A program made the translations under genes and the position numbers. Under the pieces are notes generated by a model. That model was not told the DNA's origin and ran no database searches. It was given only the letters and a program-made list of their open reading frames with translations. Shown here in pieces: positions 18,397 through 29,368 of a DNA stretch of 64,000 nucleotides. Source of the stretch: Candidatus Omnitrophota bacterium (lineage in GTDB: Bacteria > Omnitrophota > Gorgyraeia > Duberdicusellales > 4484-171). The first letter of the stretch is position 1. Each line of letters begins with the position of its first letter. The DNA lies in contig JBAZGN010000001.1 in NCBI GenBank assembly GCA_041652815.1, forward strand, positions 253,855 through 317,854. The letters are read 5' to 3'.

Positions 18397-19213
18397 GCTC
18401 AGCTCCAGCATCTCGCAATGCTATAGTTTGCTAAAATCACAAGCATCGGGATTGTGGCGAACTCTAAAACTTTCATTTAATCCATCTATTTGCCCATCTC
18501 TTCTTCTGATACTTCATAGTCGAAAACATTGATATTTTCCTGCAATCTTTTAACAGATGAGAACTTGGGGATTACTATGATACCGTGCTGGATATTCCAT
18601 CTAAGTATTACTTGCGGAACGGTTTTATTATGTCTATGTGCTATTTCAACCAACACTTTGTTTTTTATTAACTTTGGATGTATACGAGCAAGGAGGGAAA
18701 TATGCCTCTACACGAATACTCTTTGATACACAATACTCACATAATTCTTTTTGTAACAATAATGGGTGCAGCTCCACTTGGTTAACTGCTGGAATAATAG
18801 AAGCAATTTTCAATAACCTTTCTAAATGGAGTTGATGAAAATTACACACCCCAATAGCTTTAGCCATCCTTTCTTCATAAAGTTTTTCCATTTTCCCCCA
18901 ACAATCAAAAAAAGTTTCCGGGTTAGGCCAGTGTATCAAATATAAATCTATTGATTTTACACCAAGTCTTTTCATGCTATTTTGCAGAGCCAATCTAATA
19001 TTACCGGCTATTTGATCTCTATTGCTTAATTTTGTAGTAATAAACACAGTTAACGGGCACCCCCGGCGATAACAGAAAAATCTTACCGCATTCGTCGCGT
19101 CTAACATTATTAACATCCCATATTTGTAAACTCTCGTGACAAGCCAGACATTTTTTAAATATTCCTCTGCCATTGTAAACCATCATCTTCTTTTTATAAA
19201 ACAAGTACAGCAT
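18397..19213 (-). pseudogene. Aldo/keto reductase pseudogene, paralog of 11795..12709, broken by frameshifts
   Basis: 18646..19173 ORF aligns to the AKR from FITT..SN to EAY. The C-terminal tail VRHNPDACDFSKL* is found in another frame at 18397..18438 (vs LRYDPDNCDFSKL*). The N-terminal part is in yet another frame (19019..19213). Confidence 0.5.
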
Positions 19214-19320: not shown

Positions 19321-21537
19321 TTAGTCCATATTCCACCATTTATAAGGTATTTTTTCTTTTAATATTTTGTCACTTTCACCTACCGGCCGTAAACCTAGCA
19401 TACGCATATCTGCATCAACCATTATTTTTATTAGATCTAAAAATTTGATTTTGGGTTGCCAACCAAAACATTTCTTGGCCTTGTTGCCGTCGGCAATCAA
19501 ATTATTTACTTCTGTGGGCCGGAAATAGCGTTTATCTATTTTCACATATTTTTTATAACATAATCCTGCGTATTTGAAGGCGGCTTTGACAAACTCTTCG
19601 ACAGAATGCGAATGTCCTGTGCCCACAACAAAATCCTGCGGTTTATTCTGTTGTAAAATTTTCCACATGAGCTCAACGTATTCAGGAGCATAACCCCAGT
19701 CCCGTTTTGCGCTAAGATTACCTAAATAAAGCTTATCCTGCTCGCCTGCTATTATCCGTGCAATCGCTCTTGTCACTTTTCTGGTTACAAAAGTTTCTCC
19801 GCGTCTGGGGGAGTTATGCACATGACATTTACCAACTCCGCAATGGAATTCCCCAGACGTTGTTTCTAAATCATAGAACCATCCATCATACTTGGGAAGA
19901 TCTATTATTTTTTTAACCCCTAAGGGATCTTCTTTAAAATGATGTACGGCGCATGAACATCCTCCATGTTGAATTTTTCTTACGAAGCCTCTTGAAATTT
20001 GAGTTCTCCTCGAAATTTCGCGCTGAGATAAATTTTCGAACATTAATTGTCTAACTTCTACTTCTTTTAATGAATTATCTACAGTCGAGAGAATATTAAG
20101 AGAGTAAAATAATCTGCCATCATTTTTCATTTCCAAAGTAAGATTGATATCTTGCCTTGTTGTCTTATCGATTAGATACCACAATCCCATAGCCAGAGTC
20201 GGTGAATTTGTTTTGAAATTTCTAAAATCATAGGTGCAAGGATTACTTTTTAATCCATCCGTTATATTATAACCTCTCAAGAACGCCAACATAATCTCAG
20301 GTGTTGAATTCAGAATGACTTTTGGAATACGCTTTGTTCTGTCATTGTTATATATATCTATCTTTCTAAGCCAGTCATTCCCACCGGCCAGTATCAATTG
20401 ACCTACGATTCTTTCTGGATTAAATCCAGATCTATTTGGATAATATACTGTATGACCTCCTGTAATTTTTTTCCATAGCGAATTAAACCTTTCTCTAACC
20501 TCGTCTGAGGAATTAGTAAATTTTCCGTGTACTCCTGTGCCCTTTTCAGAATATGTTATAGATCCGTCTCCTACCATCATCCCCATCAATTCCGCTTCTT
20601 CTTTAGAGGTTAAATATCCCGACAGTCCCGCTGATTTCGGTAGTTCTATGTTTTCTACACGATCTTCGAGATTAATATTTTTGACTTCTTTTCCTAAATT
20701 ATTATCCATAAAAACCACATGTTCAGCTGTGGCCATAAACGCGCCGGTTCTTGAATTTATAAATCTTGGATGTTTATTATCATTTTCAATATCGTGAGGA
20801 TAAGCTGAGGCAAATGTAACATCAACCCAACCAGTTTTGCCCCATACTTGCATTCCTGATACAATTTTTGATTGATACTGCTTCTTGGTTTCATCAAATT
20901 TTACAATTTCACATATAGGTTTTATATCAAATTCCTCTTCGTTGTTTTTCTTGCAAAACATGGGCATAAAAGATGCTACTGTTTCATGATTAAACAATAT
21001 CCCGTTTGCGGCAAAAATGCCGTAACTTTTTCTGTAATCTACCGTCATCCAATAAGCATAGAGTTTAGAAATTGCGTAAGGGCTGCTTGGCGCAAAATAA
21101 GTATTTTCGTTCTGCGGAGTCCGTGTTGTGCCGAACATTTCGCTACTGGAAGCCTGGTAAAATTTTATTTTCTTCCGGCTTATTCTTATTGCTTCCAAAA
21201 TCCTTGTTGTGCCTAAAGCAGTTATGTCGCCTGTGTATTCCGGCATATCAAAACTGACCCGGACATGGCTCTGTGCGCCTAAATGGTAAATTTCATCGGG
21301 GCAGATATTGGTAATAATATAGGAAATCTGTTCAAAGGTCGAAAGATCGCCATAATGAAGAAAAAACCTTATACCCTTGATGTGAGGGTCAACGTAGATA
21401 TGATTAATTCTTTCGGTATTAAAACTACTAGACCTTCTTATGAGGCCATGGACTTCATAGCCTTTATGTAATAGAAATTCAGCCAAATAACTACCGTCTT
21501 GTCCGGTTATGCCGGTAATTAGCGCTATTTTTCTCAT
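19321..21537 (-). CDS. gmd: GDP-mannose 4,6-dehydratase interrupted by an intein (738 aa precursor; exteins about 185 + 163 aa)
   Basis: N-terminal [23 protein letters not shown]...[11 protein letters not shown]...NGILFNHE and C-terminal [20 protein letters not shown]...LYLGNL..RDWG are contiguous in ordinary Gmd ([20 protein letters not shown]). Confidence 0.85.
19813..20982 (-). mobile_element. Intein (~390 aa) with LAGLIDADG homing-endonuclease domain, inserted in gmd between NHE and SPRRGE
   Basis: C-terminal block [23 protein letters not shown] followed by +1 Ser. Block B TAEHVVF (TxxH). LAGLIDADG motifs [12 protein letters not shown] and [14 protein letters not shown]. The N-terminal boundary is ambiguous: the first residue after NHE is Thr, and the first Cys-led block-A-like segment CEIVKFDET is 23 aa further in. 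Confidence 0.8.
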
Positions 21538-22523
21538 CTGCTCTCCTTTATTTTTTGATTTTTTTCTACTTGTTCTTTAACCCAAGGATAAGTAATCTTT
21601 ATCCCATCTTTTAAAGAAAATTTTGCGCGCCAGCCGGTTGAATATATTTTTTTGTTACTGAAATTTCGCGATTGGACACCAACCGGGCCCTCTACCCATT
21701 TTATATTCAACTTTTTTCCTGCAACTTCGGTAGCGGTATCAACTAATTCCCTTACGGATACGTATTCTGGTGAACCTATATTTACCGGGCCCTCTAAATC
21801 TGATTGCATTAACTTTCGTATGCCTTCGACCATATCATCAACATAAGTATAAGACCTTATAGCCTCACCGTTACCCCATACCTCTATGACTCCGCCATTA
21901 CTAGCTTCTGCTACTTTACGGCAAATTGCTGCGGGGGCCTTTTCTCTTCCGCCACGCCAGGTTCCTTCCGGACCGTAGCAGTTTTGAAATCTTGCGATAC
22001 GCACAGTTATATTGTTGTGCCGTGAGCAGGCAAGTGCAGTGCGTTCGGCATATAACTTTTCCCAACCATACTCATTATGCGGATTTGCCGGGTAAGCATC
22101 CTCTTCGCTAAGTTCCGCTTCCCCGGGCTTCATATCACGGTATATGCAAACTGATGATGAAAAGAAATATCTTTTTACCTTTTTCGCTGTCGCCGCACTA
22201 ATCATATTTATATTTATCAATGCGCTATTGTGCATAATTTCACATTCAGCTGAGTGGATAAAACCCATTCCGCCCATATCTGCTGCGAGCTGATAAATTT
22301 CATCGAATCCATTCGCGCCAAGAGTAACTGCCTTTGCAGTGTTTACGGCATCTCGCAAATCCAAGAGTAGAAATTCATCAGCTGCGGTTTTGGAAAACTC
22401 AGGATATTTTATATCTACGCCTCTGACCCAATACCCTTCTTCTTTTAATCTCTTCACAAGATGACTGCCTATAAACCCGCCTGCTCCGCATACTACAGCT
22501 TTTTTAATTTGGCGTGAAACCAT
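21534..22523 (-). CDS. GDP-mannose 3,5-epimerase-like NAD-dependent epimerase (GME family)
   Basis: [14 protein letters not shown]; [11 protein letters not shown]; [20 protein letters not shown] closely parallel plant/bacterial GME motifs ([28 protein letters not shown]). Confidence 0.6.
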
Positions 22524-27636: not shown

Positions 27637-27721
27637 TGCCGGAGGTGGGACTTGAACCCACACGTCCCTTACGGAACATCGGATTTTAAGTCCGAGCTGT
27701 CTGCGTTTCCAGCACTCCGGC
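27637..27721 (-). tRNA. tRNA-Leu (TAA) with long variable arm
   Basis: GCCGGAG/CTCCGGC acceptor stem; anticodon loop CTTAAAA; variable-arm hairpin GTTCC-GTAA-GGGAC; 85 nt. Confidence 0.8.
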
Positions 27722-28396
27722 ATCATGAATACTCATTAAGACCGTTTTACTTTTCTGCCAACCCATTCTAGAACAAATACATTCTTGAGCCAATTTATTT
27801 TTTCTCTCCAAACTGAAATTATTTTTATAATAACAGGATTTAAGCACTTCTCTGGCAGCCATTTTACCAAATTTTAAAACATAAATCGCATTTCTCTTAT
27901 CGTTGCGATGAATTTTACCATAAACTTCTAAATATTTTTGTATTTTTTTGTCAAGCCACTCTAAAAATTTTCTTGAACCGGAATAAATTCGCAAAGACCA
28001 TTGTTCGCTAAAATTGGTCGGGTGCTTCCAGCTACGAATGGAACCGTCCCCATCGATTAAGCCCCGTAAAAAATCTGGGAAAAATTCTCTAGCCACTTTT
28101 ACCGCACCTATTGTTAAAGACTTTTTAGGAGTAAGGCCGATTGCTAATAGAAATTCATAAAAATTCTTATTAGCAATCTGTACGTGAAAAGATTTTAGTT
28201 TGTCTTTACCATATTTAATGCCAATTTTATTCTTAATTCCGATTAAATTTATTACTCTTTGAAGAAATTCGTAATCACTGGAAGTTATGTCTATATGCCT
28301 TCCATCCGGCGATAAATTTCCATCGCTGGTAATCAATCCAACTAAATACCAAAGTTTTTTACCCTTTATATTTAGTTCTTTTCGCTTTTGCGGCAT
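27686..28396 (-). CDS. Free-standing LAGLIDADG homing endonuclease
   Basis: Two LAGLIDADG motifs: LVGLITSDGNLSPDG and FLRGLIDGDGSI. The start codon is 7 nt downstream of tRNA-Cys. The 3' end reads 36 nt into tRNA-Leu and stops at its TAA anticodon triplet. Confidence 0.75.
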   Translation of the reverse strand: MPQKRKELNIKGKKLWYLVGLITSDGNLSPDGRHIDITSSDYEFLQRVINLIGIKNKIGIKYGKDKLKSFHVQIANKNFYEFLLAIGLTPKKSLTIGAVKVAREFFPDFLRGLIDGDGSIRSWKHPTNFSEQWSLRIYSGSRKFLEWLDKKIQKYLEVYGKIHRNDKRNAIYVLKFGKMAAREVLKSCYYKNNFSLERKNKLAQECICSRMGWQKSKTVLMSIHDAGVLETQTART

Positions 28397-28483: not shown

Positions 28484-28711
28484 TTATTCTTTTGCCTTTA
28501 CGCGAATTTTTCCTGCAGCAATTTCTCTAAGTGCAGTATCTAAAACCTTTTCCGTGGGTTTTTCTACTAAAGCTTTGTCTCCGTCGGCAAGCTGCAAAGC
28601 TCTTTTTGCTACAAGTATTGTTAGCTTGTAAATAGAACCCAGGCCTGCGCCGATAAGCTTTTCTAAATGGATATATCTTTCATTCATCTTTTCCCTCCTC
28701 AATGAGTGCAT
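28484..28711 (-). CDS. rpoZ: DNA-directed RNA polymerase subunit omega (true start probably the internal Met, MNERYIH...)
   Basis: LTILVAKRALQL...GKI motif; lies upstream of gmk as in many bacteria. Confidence 0.7.
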   Translation of the reverse strand: MHSLRREKMNERYIHLEKLIGAGLGSIYKLTILVAKRALQLADGDKALVEKPTEKVLDTALREIAAGKIRVKAKE

Positions 28712-28798: not shown

Positions 28799-29368
28799 TT
28801 AAGTTGCCCTCAAAATAACTTTTTCCAATTCTTTTAACGACTTGCTTAAATCTTTGTTTATTATAATAGAGTCATACTGCTTGGAAACTTTCATTTCTTT
28901 TTTTGCAAGCGTAATCCTCTTTTGTATGGTTTGCATAGCTTCAGTGCGCATCTTTAAACGTTTAAATAAATCCAACTCGCTCGGCGCGGCTATAAAAAGA
29001 GTGACTATTTTACCTTCTTTTTGCTTTTTTTTCAAATACATTCCTCCTTTTACGTCTATGCATAATATTAGGTTCTTATTTTCTTTTACCGCTCGGTCAT
29101 AAAAATATTTTGCAGTTCCGTAATAATTATCCAAAACCTTTTGGTTTTCAAGGAAAAATCCTTTCTCTCTTAGCTGCAAGAACTTACGTTTGCTGATAAA
29201 AAAGTAATCCCTGCCGTTTTTTTCTTTAGGCCGGATTTTTCTTGTCGTGTATGAAATCGCACGGATAAATTTTCCCTTTATATTTTTTTTACGAAAAACT
29301 TTATTTAGCAGTGTAGTTTTACCTGCGCCGGATGGGCCGGAAAGTATAATTATCGTGGGGGTTTTCAT
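28799..29368 (-). CDS. gmk: Guanylate kinase
   Basis: IIILSGPSGAGKTTLL P-loop; 189 aa. Confidence 0.9.
   Translation of the reverse strand: MKTPTIIILSGPSGAGKTTLLNKVFRKKNIKGKFIRAISYTTRKIRPKEKNGRDYFFISKRKFLQLREKGFFLENQKVLDNYYGTAKYFYDRAVKENKNLILCIDVKGGMYLKKKQKEGKIVTLFIAAPSELDLFKRLKMRTEAMQTIQKRITLAKKEMKVSKQYDSIIINKDLSKSLKELEKVILRAT

What the first reader, a model, noticed from the sequence alone, without database searches (positions are those of the whole stretch)
19321..21537. LAGLIDADG intein inside GDP-mannose 4,6-dehydratase, with a non-canonical N-terminal junction
A ~390-residue insertion splits the conserved Gmd motif into NGILFNHE | intein | [12 protein letters not shown]. The insertion carries intein blocks: TAEHVVF (block B), [23 protein letters not shown] followed by +1 Ser (blocks F/G), and two LAGLIDADG motifs. 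The predicted first intein residue is Thr (TVASF...), whereas canonical inteins begin with Cys, Ser or Ala. A Cys-led block-A-like segment (CEIVKFDET) appears only 23 aa later. So either the extein carries an extra loop, the intein uses an unusual N-terminal nucleophile, or it is inactive. I do not recall inteins being reported in sugar-nucleotide dehydratases in the classic intein catalogues, so this may be a new insertion site.
Basis: partly seen in the sequence, partly recalled or inferred. Interest (0 to 1): 0.75.

Follow-up and report, generated by a model that had tools for sequence, protein, structure and literature searches.

The report
Threonine-initiated intein in GDP-mannose dehydratase
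The gmd gene of this Omnitrophota genome is interrupted by a genuine self-splicing intein whose first residue is threonine instead of the usual cysteine or serine, and it belongs to a large, cross-phylum, unannotated family in which threonine has clearly been kept by selection.

Summary
Window 19321..21537 (-) is one 738-aa ORF. A complete GDP-mannose 4,6-dehydratase is split at its invariant NHE|SPRRG motif by a 390-aa insert (19813..20982). The insert models with high confidence (pLDDT 91.5), and its best structural matches are endonuclease-containing inteins (TliVMA, PI-PkoII, PI-SceI). Blocks B, F and G, the +1 Ser and both LAGLIDADG aspartates are conserved.

Thr186 is intein residue 1. 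In about 170 homologous Gmd inteins, the same column is Ser, Cys or Thr. Thr1 marks a deep clade with pairwise identity down to 32%. It occurs in 30 of 77 species-representative genomes, from Omnitrophota, Patescibacteria, Planctomycetia, Bacteroidota, a gammaproteobacterium and DPANN archaea. All four Thr codons are used and every splicing residue is retained. A Tyr-x-His motif co-varies with Ser1/Thr1 and is absent from Cys1 members, which resembles the published NX motif of oxyester inteins.

The best explanation is a class 1 intein that starts splicing with an N-O acyl shift on Thr1. The splicing itself is inferred, not shown. I found no report of natural Thr1 inteins or of Gmd inteins, so I rate it a new variant of a known kind, of moderate interest.

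The parts
20983..21537 (-). Gmd N-extein (aa 1-185), ends ...NGILFNHE. Contains the Rossmann GxxGxxG, the catalytic SSE and YxxxK motifs.
   Evidence: Pfam GDP_Man_Dehyd, TIGR01472 and PDB Gmd alignments to residues 1-186. Coordinates verified.
19813..20982 (-). Intein, 390 aa (protein residues 186-575): a Hint splicing domain with a nested LAGLIDADG endonuclease and an HTH module.
   Evidence: AF2 model pLDDT 91.5 / pTM 0.86. Foldseek top hits are TliVMA intein 7qss at E 1.6e-18, PI-PkoII 2cw7 at 7e-15 and PI-SceI at 1e-8. GC is 0.353 against 0.39 for the exteins.
20980..20982 (-). Codon ACA = Thr1, the predicted N-terminal splicing nucleophile.
   Evidence: The column is S/T/C in all relatives: 42/23/31 in proteins and 35/30/12 in genomes, with Thr codons ACA 13, ACG 11, ACC 5, ACT 1.
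20944..20982 (-). Block A region [13 protein letters not shown] (first Hint beta-strands).
   Evidence: Aligns with CISENTPLIV / SVPGNTPIIV in relatives; Pro7 is near-invariant. pLDDT is 95-97 for residues 1-30.
20794..20802 (-). Tyr61-Pro62-His63, an NX-like motif that co-varies with an oxygen nucleophile at position 1.
   Evidence: Tyr61 is present in 20/21 Thr1, 40/41 Ser1 and 0/32 Cys1 members. His63 is present in 17/21, 32/41 and 3/32. Compare the NX motif in PMC10189870.
20719..20730 (-). Block B TAEH (Thr85, His88).
   Evidence: Both residues are 43/43 conserved.
20560..20595 (-). LAGLIDADG motif 1, [12 protein letters not shown] (catalytic Asp139).
   Evidence: Pfam LAGLIDADG_3 at E 4e-6. 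Asp139 is conserved in 42/44.
20251..20286 (-). LAGLIDADG motif 2, [12 protein letters not shown] (catalytic Asp242).
   Evidence: Asp242 is conserved in 43/43. Structural hits to I-SceI, I-DmoI and WhiA.
19969..20073 (-). Three-helix HTH-like insert (SLKEVEV...[20 protein letters not shown]), probably an accessory DNA-binding module of the endonuclease.
   Evidence: Weak Pfam Sigma70_r4 hit at E 0.002, below the cut-off. Helices 304-315, 320-327 and 331-338 in the model. It is present in only a subset of relatives as an indel of about 40 aa.
19840..19890 (-). Block [18 protein letters not shown] (Asp371 at F:4).
   Evidence: Asp371 is 43/43 and Trp368 is 42/43. F:4 is Asp, not Cys.
19810..19839 (-). 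Block [10 protein letters not shown] plus the +1 Ser (His389, Asn390 | Ser576).
   Evidence: His389 41/43, Asn390 43/43, +1 Ser 42/42.
19321..19812 (-). Gmd C-extein (aa 576-738, [12 protein letters not shown]...) plus the TAA stop.
   Evidence: PDB Gmd alignment of residues 574-714. Coordinates.
21534..22523 (-). Upstream SDR epimerase/reductase whose stop overlaps the gmd start by 4 nt. It is the likely operon partner that acts on the Gmd product.
   Evidence: Pfam Epimerase at 1e-42. The best NCBIfam hit is GDP-L-fucose synthase at 110 bits, far below the 500-bit cut-off, so the exact activity is not established.

Best explanation
The gmd gene encodes an 84.8-kDa precursor in which a class 1 intein with a nested LAGLIDADG homing endonuclease interrupts the invariant NHE|SPRRG motif.

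Proposed mechanism:
1. After translation, the Thr1 hydroxyl attacks the Glu(-1) carbonyl in an N-O acyl shift. Block B Thr85/His88 assist, and so, probably, does the Tyr61-x-His63 motif.
2. The ester is passed to Ser+1.
3. Asn390 cyclises with help from His389.
4. An O-N shift yields a 40.3-kDa active Gmd and a free 44.5-kDa intein.

The endonuclease keeps both catalytic Asp residues and has an extra HTH module. It most likely cuts intein-free gmd alleles at the conserved motif and has spread the element between phyla.

Shown: the architecture, the fold, the register of the junctions, the conservation, and the selection on Thr. Inferred: that splicing occurs, its chemistry, and endonuclease activity.
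For: - **Fold and architecture.** The AF2 model has pLDDT 91.5, and the best PDB matches are full-length inteins with endonucleases.
- **Register.** Directly after NHE, the column is Cys, Ser or Thr in every relative. Residues 1-23 are modelled as Hint strands at pLDDT 95-97.
- **Catalytic set.** Thr85, His88, Asp371, His389, Asn390 and Ser+1 are invariant or nearly so.
- **Selection on Thr1.**
  - It defines a deep clade with pairwise identity down to 32%, and all splicing residues are kept.
  - It occurs in 30 of 77 species-representative genomes, inside uninterrupted ORFs of 719-831 codons. All four Thr codons are used.
  - Ser1 alleles are nested in the clade: P0003 has TCG where P0002 has ACG.
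  - In P0054 and P0083 the endonuclease Asp residues have decayed while the splicing residues persist.
  - The host Gmd catalytic motifs are intact in all 23 Thr1 loci examined. pN is well below pS in both exteins and intein.
- **Oxyester signature.** Tyr61/His63 are present with Ser1 or Thr1 and absent with Cys1, like the NX histidine that is critical in Ser1 inteins (PMC10189870). The best solved sequence match of the N-lobe is the Ser1 Mja TFIIB intein.
- **Precedent.** The S1T mutant of the Tli Pol-2 intein splices, and class 1 is defined as Ser1, Thr1 or Cys1 (PMC2807308; PMC5222942).
- **Mobility.** Intein identity stays flat at 63-72% across Omnitrophota, Patescibacteria, Planctomycetia and DPANN archaea, while extein identity varies from 46% to 75%.
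Against: - There is no biochemical evidence of splicing for any member of this family.
- Threonine is a poorer and more hindered nucleophile than Ser or Cys.
- No curated Hint or intein HMM recognises the insert.
- dS is saturated, so dN/dS could not be quantified.
- In the window, His63 is preceded by Pro, not the Arg/Lys described for the NX motif.
- One close Thr1 relative (L001) has an in-frame stop in its N-extein, so some copies may be decaying.
- Only 64 kb of this genome was visible, so a second, intein-free gmd cannot be excluded.
Confidence: 0.8

Rival explanations
1. The intein is real but no longer splices. The Ser/Cys-to-Thr change killed step 1, so this gmd is a dead gene, or the intein only cleaves, and Gmd function is supplied elsewhere.
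For: Thr1 had not been seen in natural inteins as of 2010 (PMC2807308). One close Thr1 relative has an in-frame stop in the N-extein. The gene downstream of gmd looks truncated. Only 64 kb of the genome could be checked for a second gmd.
Against: Thr1 is kept in 30 species-level genomes from six or more phylum-level groups, with all four synonymous codons and intact ORFs. Every splicing residue and the Gmd catalytic motifs are retained down to 32% intein identity. The splicing residues outlast the endonuclease active site in P0054 and P0083. pN is well below pS in both exteins. A dead gene would not show this pattern.
Confidence: 0.07
2. The intein splices but bypasses residue 1. Either Ser+1 attacks the N-terminal junction directly (class 2-like), or an internal nucleophile does (class 3-like), and Thr1 is only structural.
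For: Class 2 and class 3 inteins show that a position-1 nucleophile is dispensable in some lineages (PMC2807308, PMC5222942). The window intein has non-conserved Cys residues near the C-terminus ([12 protein letters not shown]).
Against: The class 3 WCT triplet is absent: B:12 is Val, F:4 is Asp (invariant) and G:5 is Val. Position 1 is never a non-nucleophile; it is only S, T or C in about 170 sequences, which argues that the side chain is used. The +1 residue is Ser, a weak nucleophile for direct amide attack. Cys381 and Cys386 are not conserved.
Confidence: 0.08
3. The junction is mis-placed. The intein really starts at Cys209 (CEIVKFDET), and the 23 residues TVASF...KPI are a lineage-specific Gmd loop.
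Against: That column is Gly 14, Ser 11, Ala 4 in relatives and Cys only here. Residues 1-23 are conserved (Pro7, Asp19, Ile20, Pro22, Ile23) and fold as Hint beta-strands at pLDDT 95-97. Relatives with Cys1 or Ser1 begin directly after NHE. No solved Gmd has such a loop.
Confidence: 0.01
4. The insert is not an intein but a permanent, lineage-specific accessory domain of Gmd, for example a DNA-binding LAGLIDADG/HTH module as in WhiA.
For: Only LAGLIDADG_3 and a weak HTH are detected by profile HMMs, and no Hint model hits. WhiA-type non-nuclease LAGLIDADG proteins are among the structural hits.
Against: Whole-length structural matches are to inteins, including their Hint lobes. TxxH, the block F Asp and HN|S are conserved. 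The insertion sits inside an invariant substrate-site motif, and the distribution is patchy and cross-domain, discordant with host relatedness. Related elements occupy the classical PolB intein site YGD|S...HN|TDS.
Confidence: 0.01

Closest known systems
Ser1/Ser+1 or Ser1/Thr+1 'cysteine-less' class 1 inteins with a nested LAGLIDADG endonuclease: PI-PkoII (Tko Pol-2, PDB 2cw7), Psp-GBD Pol-1, and the Mja TFIIB intein (5o9j)
   Same: It has a Hint fold with a nested double-motif LAGLIDADG domain (2cw7 matches at E 7e-15). It has oxygen nucleophiles at both junctions, TxxH, the block F Asp and HN. A histidine lies about 19-22 residues before block B and tracks the oxygen nucleophile, matching the NX motif of PMC10189870. 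Sequence relatives of the Gmd intein occupy the PolB YGD|S...HN|TDS site.
   Different: Residue 1 is Thr rather than Ser. The host is a sugar-nucleotide dehydratase rather than a replication or transcription protein. The residue before the histidine is Pro in the window, not Arg/Lys. It carries an additional HTH insert. Hosts are mesophilic, uncultivated bacteria and DPANN archaea rather than hyperthermophiles.
Thermococcus litoralis VMA intein (PDB 7qss, 7qsu) and PI-SceI (1ef0, 1lws)
   Same: These are the best overall structural matches (E 1.6e-18 and 1e-8). They share the same two-domain intein-plus-endonuclease organisation.
   Different: They are Cys1/Cys+1 thioester inteins in V-ATPase subunit A. 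Sequence identity is only 12-16%.
Tli Pol-2 intein S1T mutant (engineered)
   Same: It is the only experimental case I could cite in which Thr at intein position 1 supports splicing (quoted in PMC2807308).
   Different: That is a laboratory substitution. Here Thr1 is the natural, selected state of a whole clade.
Archaeal UDP-glucose/GDP-mannose dehydrogenase (UDP-GlcDH) inteins
   Same: This is another nucleotide-sugar enzyme known to host inteins: 10 inteins in Euryarchaeota in the survey table of PMC4760082.
   Different: It is a different enzyme family (COG1004 dehydrogenase, not an SDR 4,6-dehydratase) with a different insertion site. No relationship to the Gmd intein was tested.
Class 3 (WCT) and class 2 (KlbA) inteins, the known non-canonical N-termini
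   Same: They also depart from the Cys1/Ser1 rule.
   Different: They lack any nucleophile at position 1 and use Cys F:4 or the +1 residue instead. Here F:4 is Asp, there is no WCT triplet, and position 1 is always a nucleophilic residue.

Membership tests
Class 1 intein (Hint domain, four-step splicing) | Hint (Hedgehog/intein) fold formed by the N- and C-terminal parts of the insert | tested here: met
   AF2 model pLDDT 91.5. Foldseek matches whole inteins 7qss, 2cw7 and 1ef0, and mini-inteins 6vgv and 7oec.
Class 1 intein (Hint domain, four-step splicing) | Nucleophilic residue (Cys, Ser or Thr) at intein position 1 | tested here: met
   Thr186. The homologous column is S/C/T only in about 170 relatives. 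The class 1 definition includes Thr1 (PMC5222942).
Class 1 intein (Hint domain, four-step splicing) | Block B Thr-x-x-His | tested here: met
   TAEH; Thr85 and His88 are both 43/43.
Class 1 intein (Hint domain, four-step splicing) | Block F Asp (F:4), and block G penultimate His and terminal Asn followed by Cys, Ser or Thr at +1 | tested here: met
   Asp371 43/43, His389 41/43, Asn390 43/43, Ser+1 42/42.
Class 1 intein (Hint domain, four-step splicing) | In-frame insertion in a conserved host motif, where removing it restores a colinear host protein | tested here: met
   The exteins abut at NHE|SPRRG in alignments to 11 solved Gmd structures. The spliced product is 348 aa.
Class 1 intein (Hint domain, four-step splicing) | Demonstrated protein splicing (ligated exteins plus free intein) | not testable with these tools
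   Needs expression with SDS-PAGE and MS. Only evolutionary evidence is available.
Class 1 intein (Hint domain, four-step splicing) | Recognition by curated intein/Hint profile HMMs (Pfam Intein_splicing/Hint; NCBIfam intein N- and C-terminal models). This is not defining but is the usual route to annotation. | tested here: not met
   No such hit at E<=10 in Pfam or E<=0.01 in NCBIfam. Only LAGLIDADG_3 and a weak match to an intein-containing V-ATPase model.
LAGLIDADG homing endonuclease (single-chain, double-motif) | Two LAGLIDADG helices, each ending in a catalytic acidic residue, in a pseudo-dimeric alpha-beta-beta-alpha-beta-beta-alpha fold | tested here: met
   Motifs at intein 130-141 and 233-244. 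Asp139 42/44 and Asp242 43/43. Pfam LAGLIDADG_3 at E 4e-6. Structural hits to I-SceI, I-DmoI and I-AniI.
LAGLIDADG homing endonuclease (single-chain, double-motif) | Site-specific cleavage of the intein-free allele | not testable with these tools
   The only evidence is indirect: intein and extein similarity are discordant and the distribution crosses phyla.
Oxyester (Ser1-type) inteins with the NX motif (Pasch et al. 2023) | Conserved His upstream of block B, near residue 1, preceded by Arg/Lys, and present only when positions 1 and +1 are oxygen nucleophiles | tested here: inconclusive
   His63 co-varies with Ser1/Thr1 and is absent with Cys1. Its spacing to block B (19-22 residues) matches the R-H of the Mja TFIIB intein. 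However, the preceding residue is Pro in the window (K/R/H in Ser1 relatives), and 3D proximity to Thr1 could not be measured.
Class 3 intein | WCT triplet (Trp B:12, Cys F:4, Thr G:5) with a non-nucleophilic residue 1 | tested here: not met
   B:12 Val, F:4 Asp, G:5 Val.
Class 2 (KlbA-type) intein | Non-nucleophilic residue 1 (Ala), with direct attack by the +1 residue | tested here: not met
   Residue 1 is Thr and is never a non-nucleophile in the family. The +1 residue is Ser.
GDP-mannose 4,6-dehydratase (host protein) | Scores above the curated equivalog cut-off; catalytic Ser/Thr-Glu and YxxxK motifs present | tested here: met
   TIGR01472 scores 473.7 bits against a 415 cut-off. ASSSEMFG and YAISK are present in the N-extein.

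The most novel reading that the evidence does not exclude
This is the first natural clade of Thr1 inteins. Within one intein allele family, the N-terminal nucleophile has switched among Cys, Ser and Thr, with a co-varying Tyr-x-His (NX-like) active-site motif. Thr1 would then be a selected, fully cysteine-independent solution that may give slower or condition-dependent splicing of a cell-surface-sugar enzyme. The family would be both a natural experiment on how inteins tune their first step and a source of new cysteine-less intein scaffolds.
Probability: 0.45. Interest if true: 0.7.

Novelty: new variant of a known kind. Interest (0 to 1): 0.58.

Why it matters
Intein reviews state that position 1 may be Cys, Ser or Thr. 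However, the reference catalogue contained no natural Thr1 intein (PMC2807308), and later analyses of oxyester inteins used Ser1 sets only (PMC10189870). A large, clearly selected Thr1 clade would fill that gap.

It also offers matched Cys1, Ser1 and Thr1 relatives at one insertion site for mechanistic work. The Tyr-x-His covariation is a directly testable prediction.

It adds candidates to the short list of cysteine-independent inteins wanted for protein engineering under oxidising conditions.

It shows that a common sugar-nucleotide enzyme is an intein host in many uncultivated lineages (CPR, DPANN, Omnitrophota, Eremiobacterota, Saprospiraceae). Annotation pipelines currently truncate or mis-name these genes, including this window's own gene.

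Tried and rejected
- **Profile HMM detection of the splicing domain.** Pfam at E<=10 and NCBIfam at E<=0.01 gave no Hint or intein model, only LAGLIDADG_3 and a sub-threshold Sigma70_r4. I therefore relied on structure prediction and fold search.
- **Sequence search of the insert against PDB.** This gave only marginal hits (PI-PkoII at E 0.027, V-ATPase inteins at 0.2-0.3). A profile of the N-lobe gave only Mja TFIIB at E 0.28, which is usable as a register guide but not as proof.
- **dN/dS between the window and its two closest DNA relatives.** Synonymous sites are saturated (pS 0.74-0.97), so only pN << pS can be stated.
Rejected.
- **Class 3 and class 2 mechanisms.** Rejected on motif grounds.
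- **Literature.** Six full-text searches found no Gmd intein and no natural Thr1 intein. The supplementary tables of the main survey (PMC4760082) are not held, so an unremarked listing cannot be excluded.
- **Not possible.** I could not read model coordinates to measure the distances from Thr1 to His63, His88 and Asp371. I could not check the rest of this genome for a second gmd.
Full report
**1. What is in the sequence**

Window 19321..21537 (minus strand) is one uninterrupted 738-codon ORF. Its ATG is preceded by AAGGAG and it ends in TAA. Residues 1-185 and 576-738 together make a complete GDP-mannose 4,6-dehydratase. Pfam GDP_Man_Dehyd matches at E 1.9e-128. NCBIfam TIGR01472 scores 473.7 bits against a cut-off of 415. 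Eleven solved Gmd structures match in two pieces that abut exactly at the invariant motif NHE|SPRRG.

The 390 residues in between (protein 186-575, window 19813..20982) have no counterpart in any Gmd structure. They are slightly more AT-rich than the exteins (GC 0.353 against 0.39).

**2. The insert is an intein with a nested LAGLIDADG endonuclease**

Curated profile HMMs see only LAGLIDADG_3 (E 4e-6) and a sub-threshold Sigma70_r4 helix-turn-helix. No Hint or intein model matches, even at E<=10.

I built a 44-sequence alignment of relatives (A1) and used it for an AlphaFold2 prediction of the insert. The model has mean pLDDT 91.5 and pTM 0.86. It shows beta-rich N- and C-terminal lobes around an alpha/beta core.

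Foldseek against the PDB returns full-length endonuclease-containing inteins as the best hits:
- TliVMA 7qss, E 1.6e-18
- PI-PkoII 2cw7, E 7e-15
- PI-SceI, about 1e-8

These are followed by free LAGLIDADG enzymes (I-SceI, I-DmoI, I-AniI), WhiA and mini-inteins.

The canonical positions are conserved in the family alignment:

| Position | Conservation |
|---|---|
| Block B Thr85 | 43/43 |
| Block B His88 | 43/43 |
| Block F Asp371 | 43/43 |
| Penultimate His389 | 41/43 |
| Terminal Asn390 | 43/43 |
| +1 Ser | 42/42 |
| LAGLIDADG Asp139 | 42/44 |
| LAGLIDADG Asp242 | 43/43 |

A three-helix module (intein 304-338) corresponds to the weak HTH hit. It is an indel found in only part of the family.

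**3. Where the intein starts**

Searching the insert against about 5.8 billion proteins gave 84 hits, all inside Gmd. An exhaustive search of 1.84 billion cluster representatives gave 352 hits.

In every relative that retains the N-junction, the residue directly after NHE is Cys, Ser or Thr. Examples are CISENTPLIV, SVPGNTPIIV and TVASFMPMF. The tally over 96 proteins is Ser 42, Cys 31, Thr 23. Thr186 is therefore homologous to the position-1 nucleophile of ordinary relatives.

Residues 1-23 are conserved (Pro7, Asp19, Ile20, Pro22, Ile23) and are modelled as Hint strands at pLDDT 95-97.

That column is Gly, Ser or Ala in relatives and Cys only in this sequence.

**4. Is Thr1 functional or a lesion?**

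Several independent lines argue that it is functional.

(a) In a neighbour-joining tree of complete inteins, Thr1 characterises a whole deep clade, with a Ser1 allele (P0003) nested inside it. Pairwise identity among Thr1 inteins falls to 32%, yet all keep Thr85, His88, Asp371, His389 and Asn390.

(b) I scanned one genome per GTDB species. Thr1 was found in 30 of the 77 loci whose N-junction could be read. The hosts are:
- Omnitrophota
- Patescibacteria (Saccharibacteria, Liptonbacteria, Peribacteria)
- a Planctomycetia MAG
- Saprospiraceae and other Bacteroidota
- a Cellvibrionaceae MAG
- DPANN archaea (Woesearchaeota, Nanoarchaeota)

Each lies in an uninterrupted reading frame of 719-831 codons and ends in HN|S. 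All four Thr codons are used: ACA 13, ACG 11, ACC 5, ACT 1. Synonymous turnover at that codon means the amino acid itself is under selection.

(c) Ser1 and Thr1 interchange by single-base steps inside the clade. The codon is TCG in P0003, ACG in P0002 and ACA in the window.

(d) In two Thr1 alleles (P0054, P0083) the endonuclease aspartates have decayed while the splicing residues persist. This is the classical sign that splicing is what selection maintains.

(e) The Gmd catalytic motifs are intact in all 23 Thr1 loci checked. pN is far below pS in both exteins and in the intein, although dS is saturated.

**5. A co-varying active-site motif**

I aligned the N-terminal lobes of 94 inteins at this site.

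| Residue | Thr1 members | Ser1 members | Cys1 members |
|---|---|---|---|
| Tyr61 | 20/21 | 40/41 | 0/32 |
| His63 | 17/21 | 32/41 | 3/32 |

Pasch et al. 2023 (PMC10189870) described an 'NX' histidine. It lies within hydrogen-bonding distance of Ser1, is essential in three Ser1 inteins, and is conserved only in inteins with oxygen nucleophiles. Their set was 58 Ser1 inteins and contained no Thr1 member.

The best solved sequence match to my N-lobe profile is the Ser1 Mja TFIIB intein. Its R-H lies 19 residues before the block B Thr. That is the same spacing as in short-loop members of this family. In the window the spacing is 22 because of a 3-residue loop insertion.

I therefore consider His63 a probable NX histidine. 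The assignment is inconclusive for two reasons. The preceding residue is Pro here rather than Arg/Lys, and I could not measure distances in the model.

**6. Mechanism**

The class 3 signature is absent: B:12 is Val, F:4 is Asp and G:5 is Val. Position 1 is never a non-nucleophile in the family, and the +1 residue is Ser.

The most economical reading is the standard class 1 pathway run entirely on oxygen:
1. Thr1 N-O acyl shift.
2. Transesterification to Ser+1.
3. Asn390 cyclisation assisted by His389.
4. O-N shift.

The predicted products are a 40.3-kDa Gmd and a 44.5-kDa intein from an 84.8-kDa precursor.

There is precedent. Class 1 is defined as Ser1, Thr1 or Cys1 (PMC5222942), and the S1T mutant of the Tli Pol-2 intein splices (quoted in PMC2807308).

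None of this chemistry is shown here. It is inferred from the anatomy and from the pattern of selection.

**7. Mobility**

Relative to the window, intein identity is nearly flat at 63-72% across Omnitrophota, Saccharibacteria, Planctomycetia, Woesearchaeota and Nanoarchaeota. Extein identity ranges from 46% to 75%. In many pairs it is lower than the intein identity, for example Saccharibacteria L004 with intein 72% and exteins 58% and 50%. In others it is higher, for example Omnitrophota L021 with intein 65% and exteins 72% and 68%.

Together with the intact endonuclease aspartates and the insertion in an invariant DNA-level motif, this fits spread by homing across phyla and domains. Endonuclease activity is untested.

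**8. Context**

The window's gene is 100% identical to a Candidatus Omnitrophota MAG protein on an 811-kb contig (P0001). The upstream SDR gene (21534..22523) overlaps the gmd start by 4 nt. Its best, sub-threshold match is GDP-L-fucose synthase, so a GDP-6-deoxyhexose operon is plausible but not established.

**9. Comparison with what is known, and novelty**

The element works like, and passes the sequence and structure tests for, a class 1 intein with a LAGLIDADG homing endonuclease. Its nearest characterised relatives are the Ser1 archaeal Pol and TFIIB inteins.

It differs in three respects: the natural Thr1, the host protein and insertion site, and an HTH accessory module.

Tori et al. 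[quoted passage not shown] Later papers I could read list Thr1 only as a formal possibility. Six full-text searches found neither a natural Thr1 intein nor any Gmd intein. The closest nucleotide-sugar host reported is archaeal UDP-glucose dehydrogenase. The library is incomplete and the survey's supplementary tables are not held, so prior mention cannot be excluded.

I rate it a new variant of a known kind. The mechanism class is familiar, but the nucleophile state and the allele are apparently undescribed.

**10. Verdict**

- Confidence that this is a bona fide intein beginning at Thr186 is very high.
- Confidence that it splices through a Thr1 ester is about 0.8.
- Interest is moderate (0.58). 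A specialist would not be astonished, since Thr1 was always considered chemically possible. A large selected Thr1 clade, with matched Ser1 and Cys1 relatives and a co-varying motif, does make an old open point directly testable, and it is relevant to the engineering of cysteine-less inteins.

Noticed in passing
window 27686..28396 (-): A free-standing 236-aa double-motif LAGLIDADG ORF (LVGLITSDGN / LRGLIDGDGS; Pfam LAGLIDADG_3 at E 3e-13, no NCBIfam hit). It lies just downstream of a guanylate-kinase-like gene (28799..29368) and an rpoZ-like gene (28484..28711), about 6.7 kb from the gmd intein. It is a second homing-endonuclease-type gene in the same 64 kb.
   Followed up: partly
window 18646..19173 (-) and 17.8-19.3 kb: The gene directly downstream of gmd is only a 175-aa fragment of an aldo/keto reductase (profile positions 64-191 of 291). 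The surrounding 1.5 kb is poorly coding. It is probably a decayed gene.
   Followed up: no
window 19321..21537 (-); P0001; L003:513-2747: Public annotations of the window's own gene (P0001, 548 aa) and of a Ser1 relative (P0003, 550 aa) start at Met6 of the intein, although the ORFs continue upstream through a complete N-extein with a good RBS. Other fragments of such genes are named 'XRE family transcriptional regulator' because of the HTH insert. Intein-containing gmd genes are systematically mis-annotated.
   Followed up: yes
proteins P0122 (1087 aa) and P0123 (1043 aa): Some Gmd proteins carry two inteins. One is at the NHE|SPRRG site. The second is inside the catalytic motif (YQASS|...AHN|SSEMFG and YNAG|C...SGN|SSEEFG). 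Gmd therefore has at least two intein insertion sites.
   Followed up: no
proteins P0126, P0130, P0151, P0156, P0169, P0172, P0175, P0168: Relatives of this intein occupy the classical PolB site (YGD|S...HN|TDS). They also occupy a paralogous Rmd-like SDR at the equivalent motif, shifted by one residue (FNH|S...HN|TGPRRG, +1 Thr), and a subtilase-like protein. This suggests transfers between host genes.
   Followed up: no
L033, L034, L036-L039, L052 (DPANN archaea and Paceibacterota): A Cys1 subclade of the Gmd intein ends in AN|S or SN|S rather than HN|S, so it lacks the penultimate histidine. This is another non-canonical junction in the same family.
   Followed up: no
L001:5773-8019 (GCA_053533575.1, P0002): The closest Thr1 relative in the protein search (69% identity) has an in-frame stop in the Gmd N-terminus (GITGQDA*SETYG), and the called gene starts downstream at GTG. 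It is either a decaying copy or an assembly error.
   Followed up: partly
window 19969..20073 (-) and relatives: The HTH module of about 40 aa between the endonuclease core and block F is present in some Thr1 and Ser1 alleles (window, P0002, P0003, P0013, P0020). In most others it is replaced by a loop of about 10 aa. It is a modular gain or loss within one intein family.
   Followed up: partly
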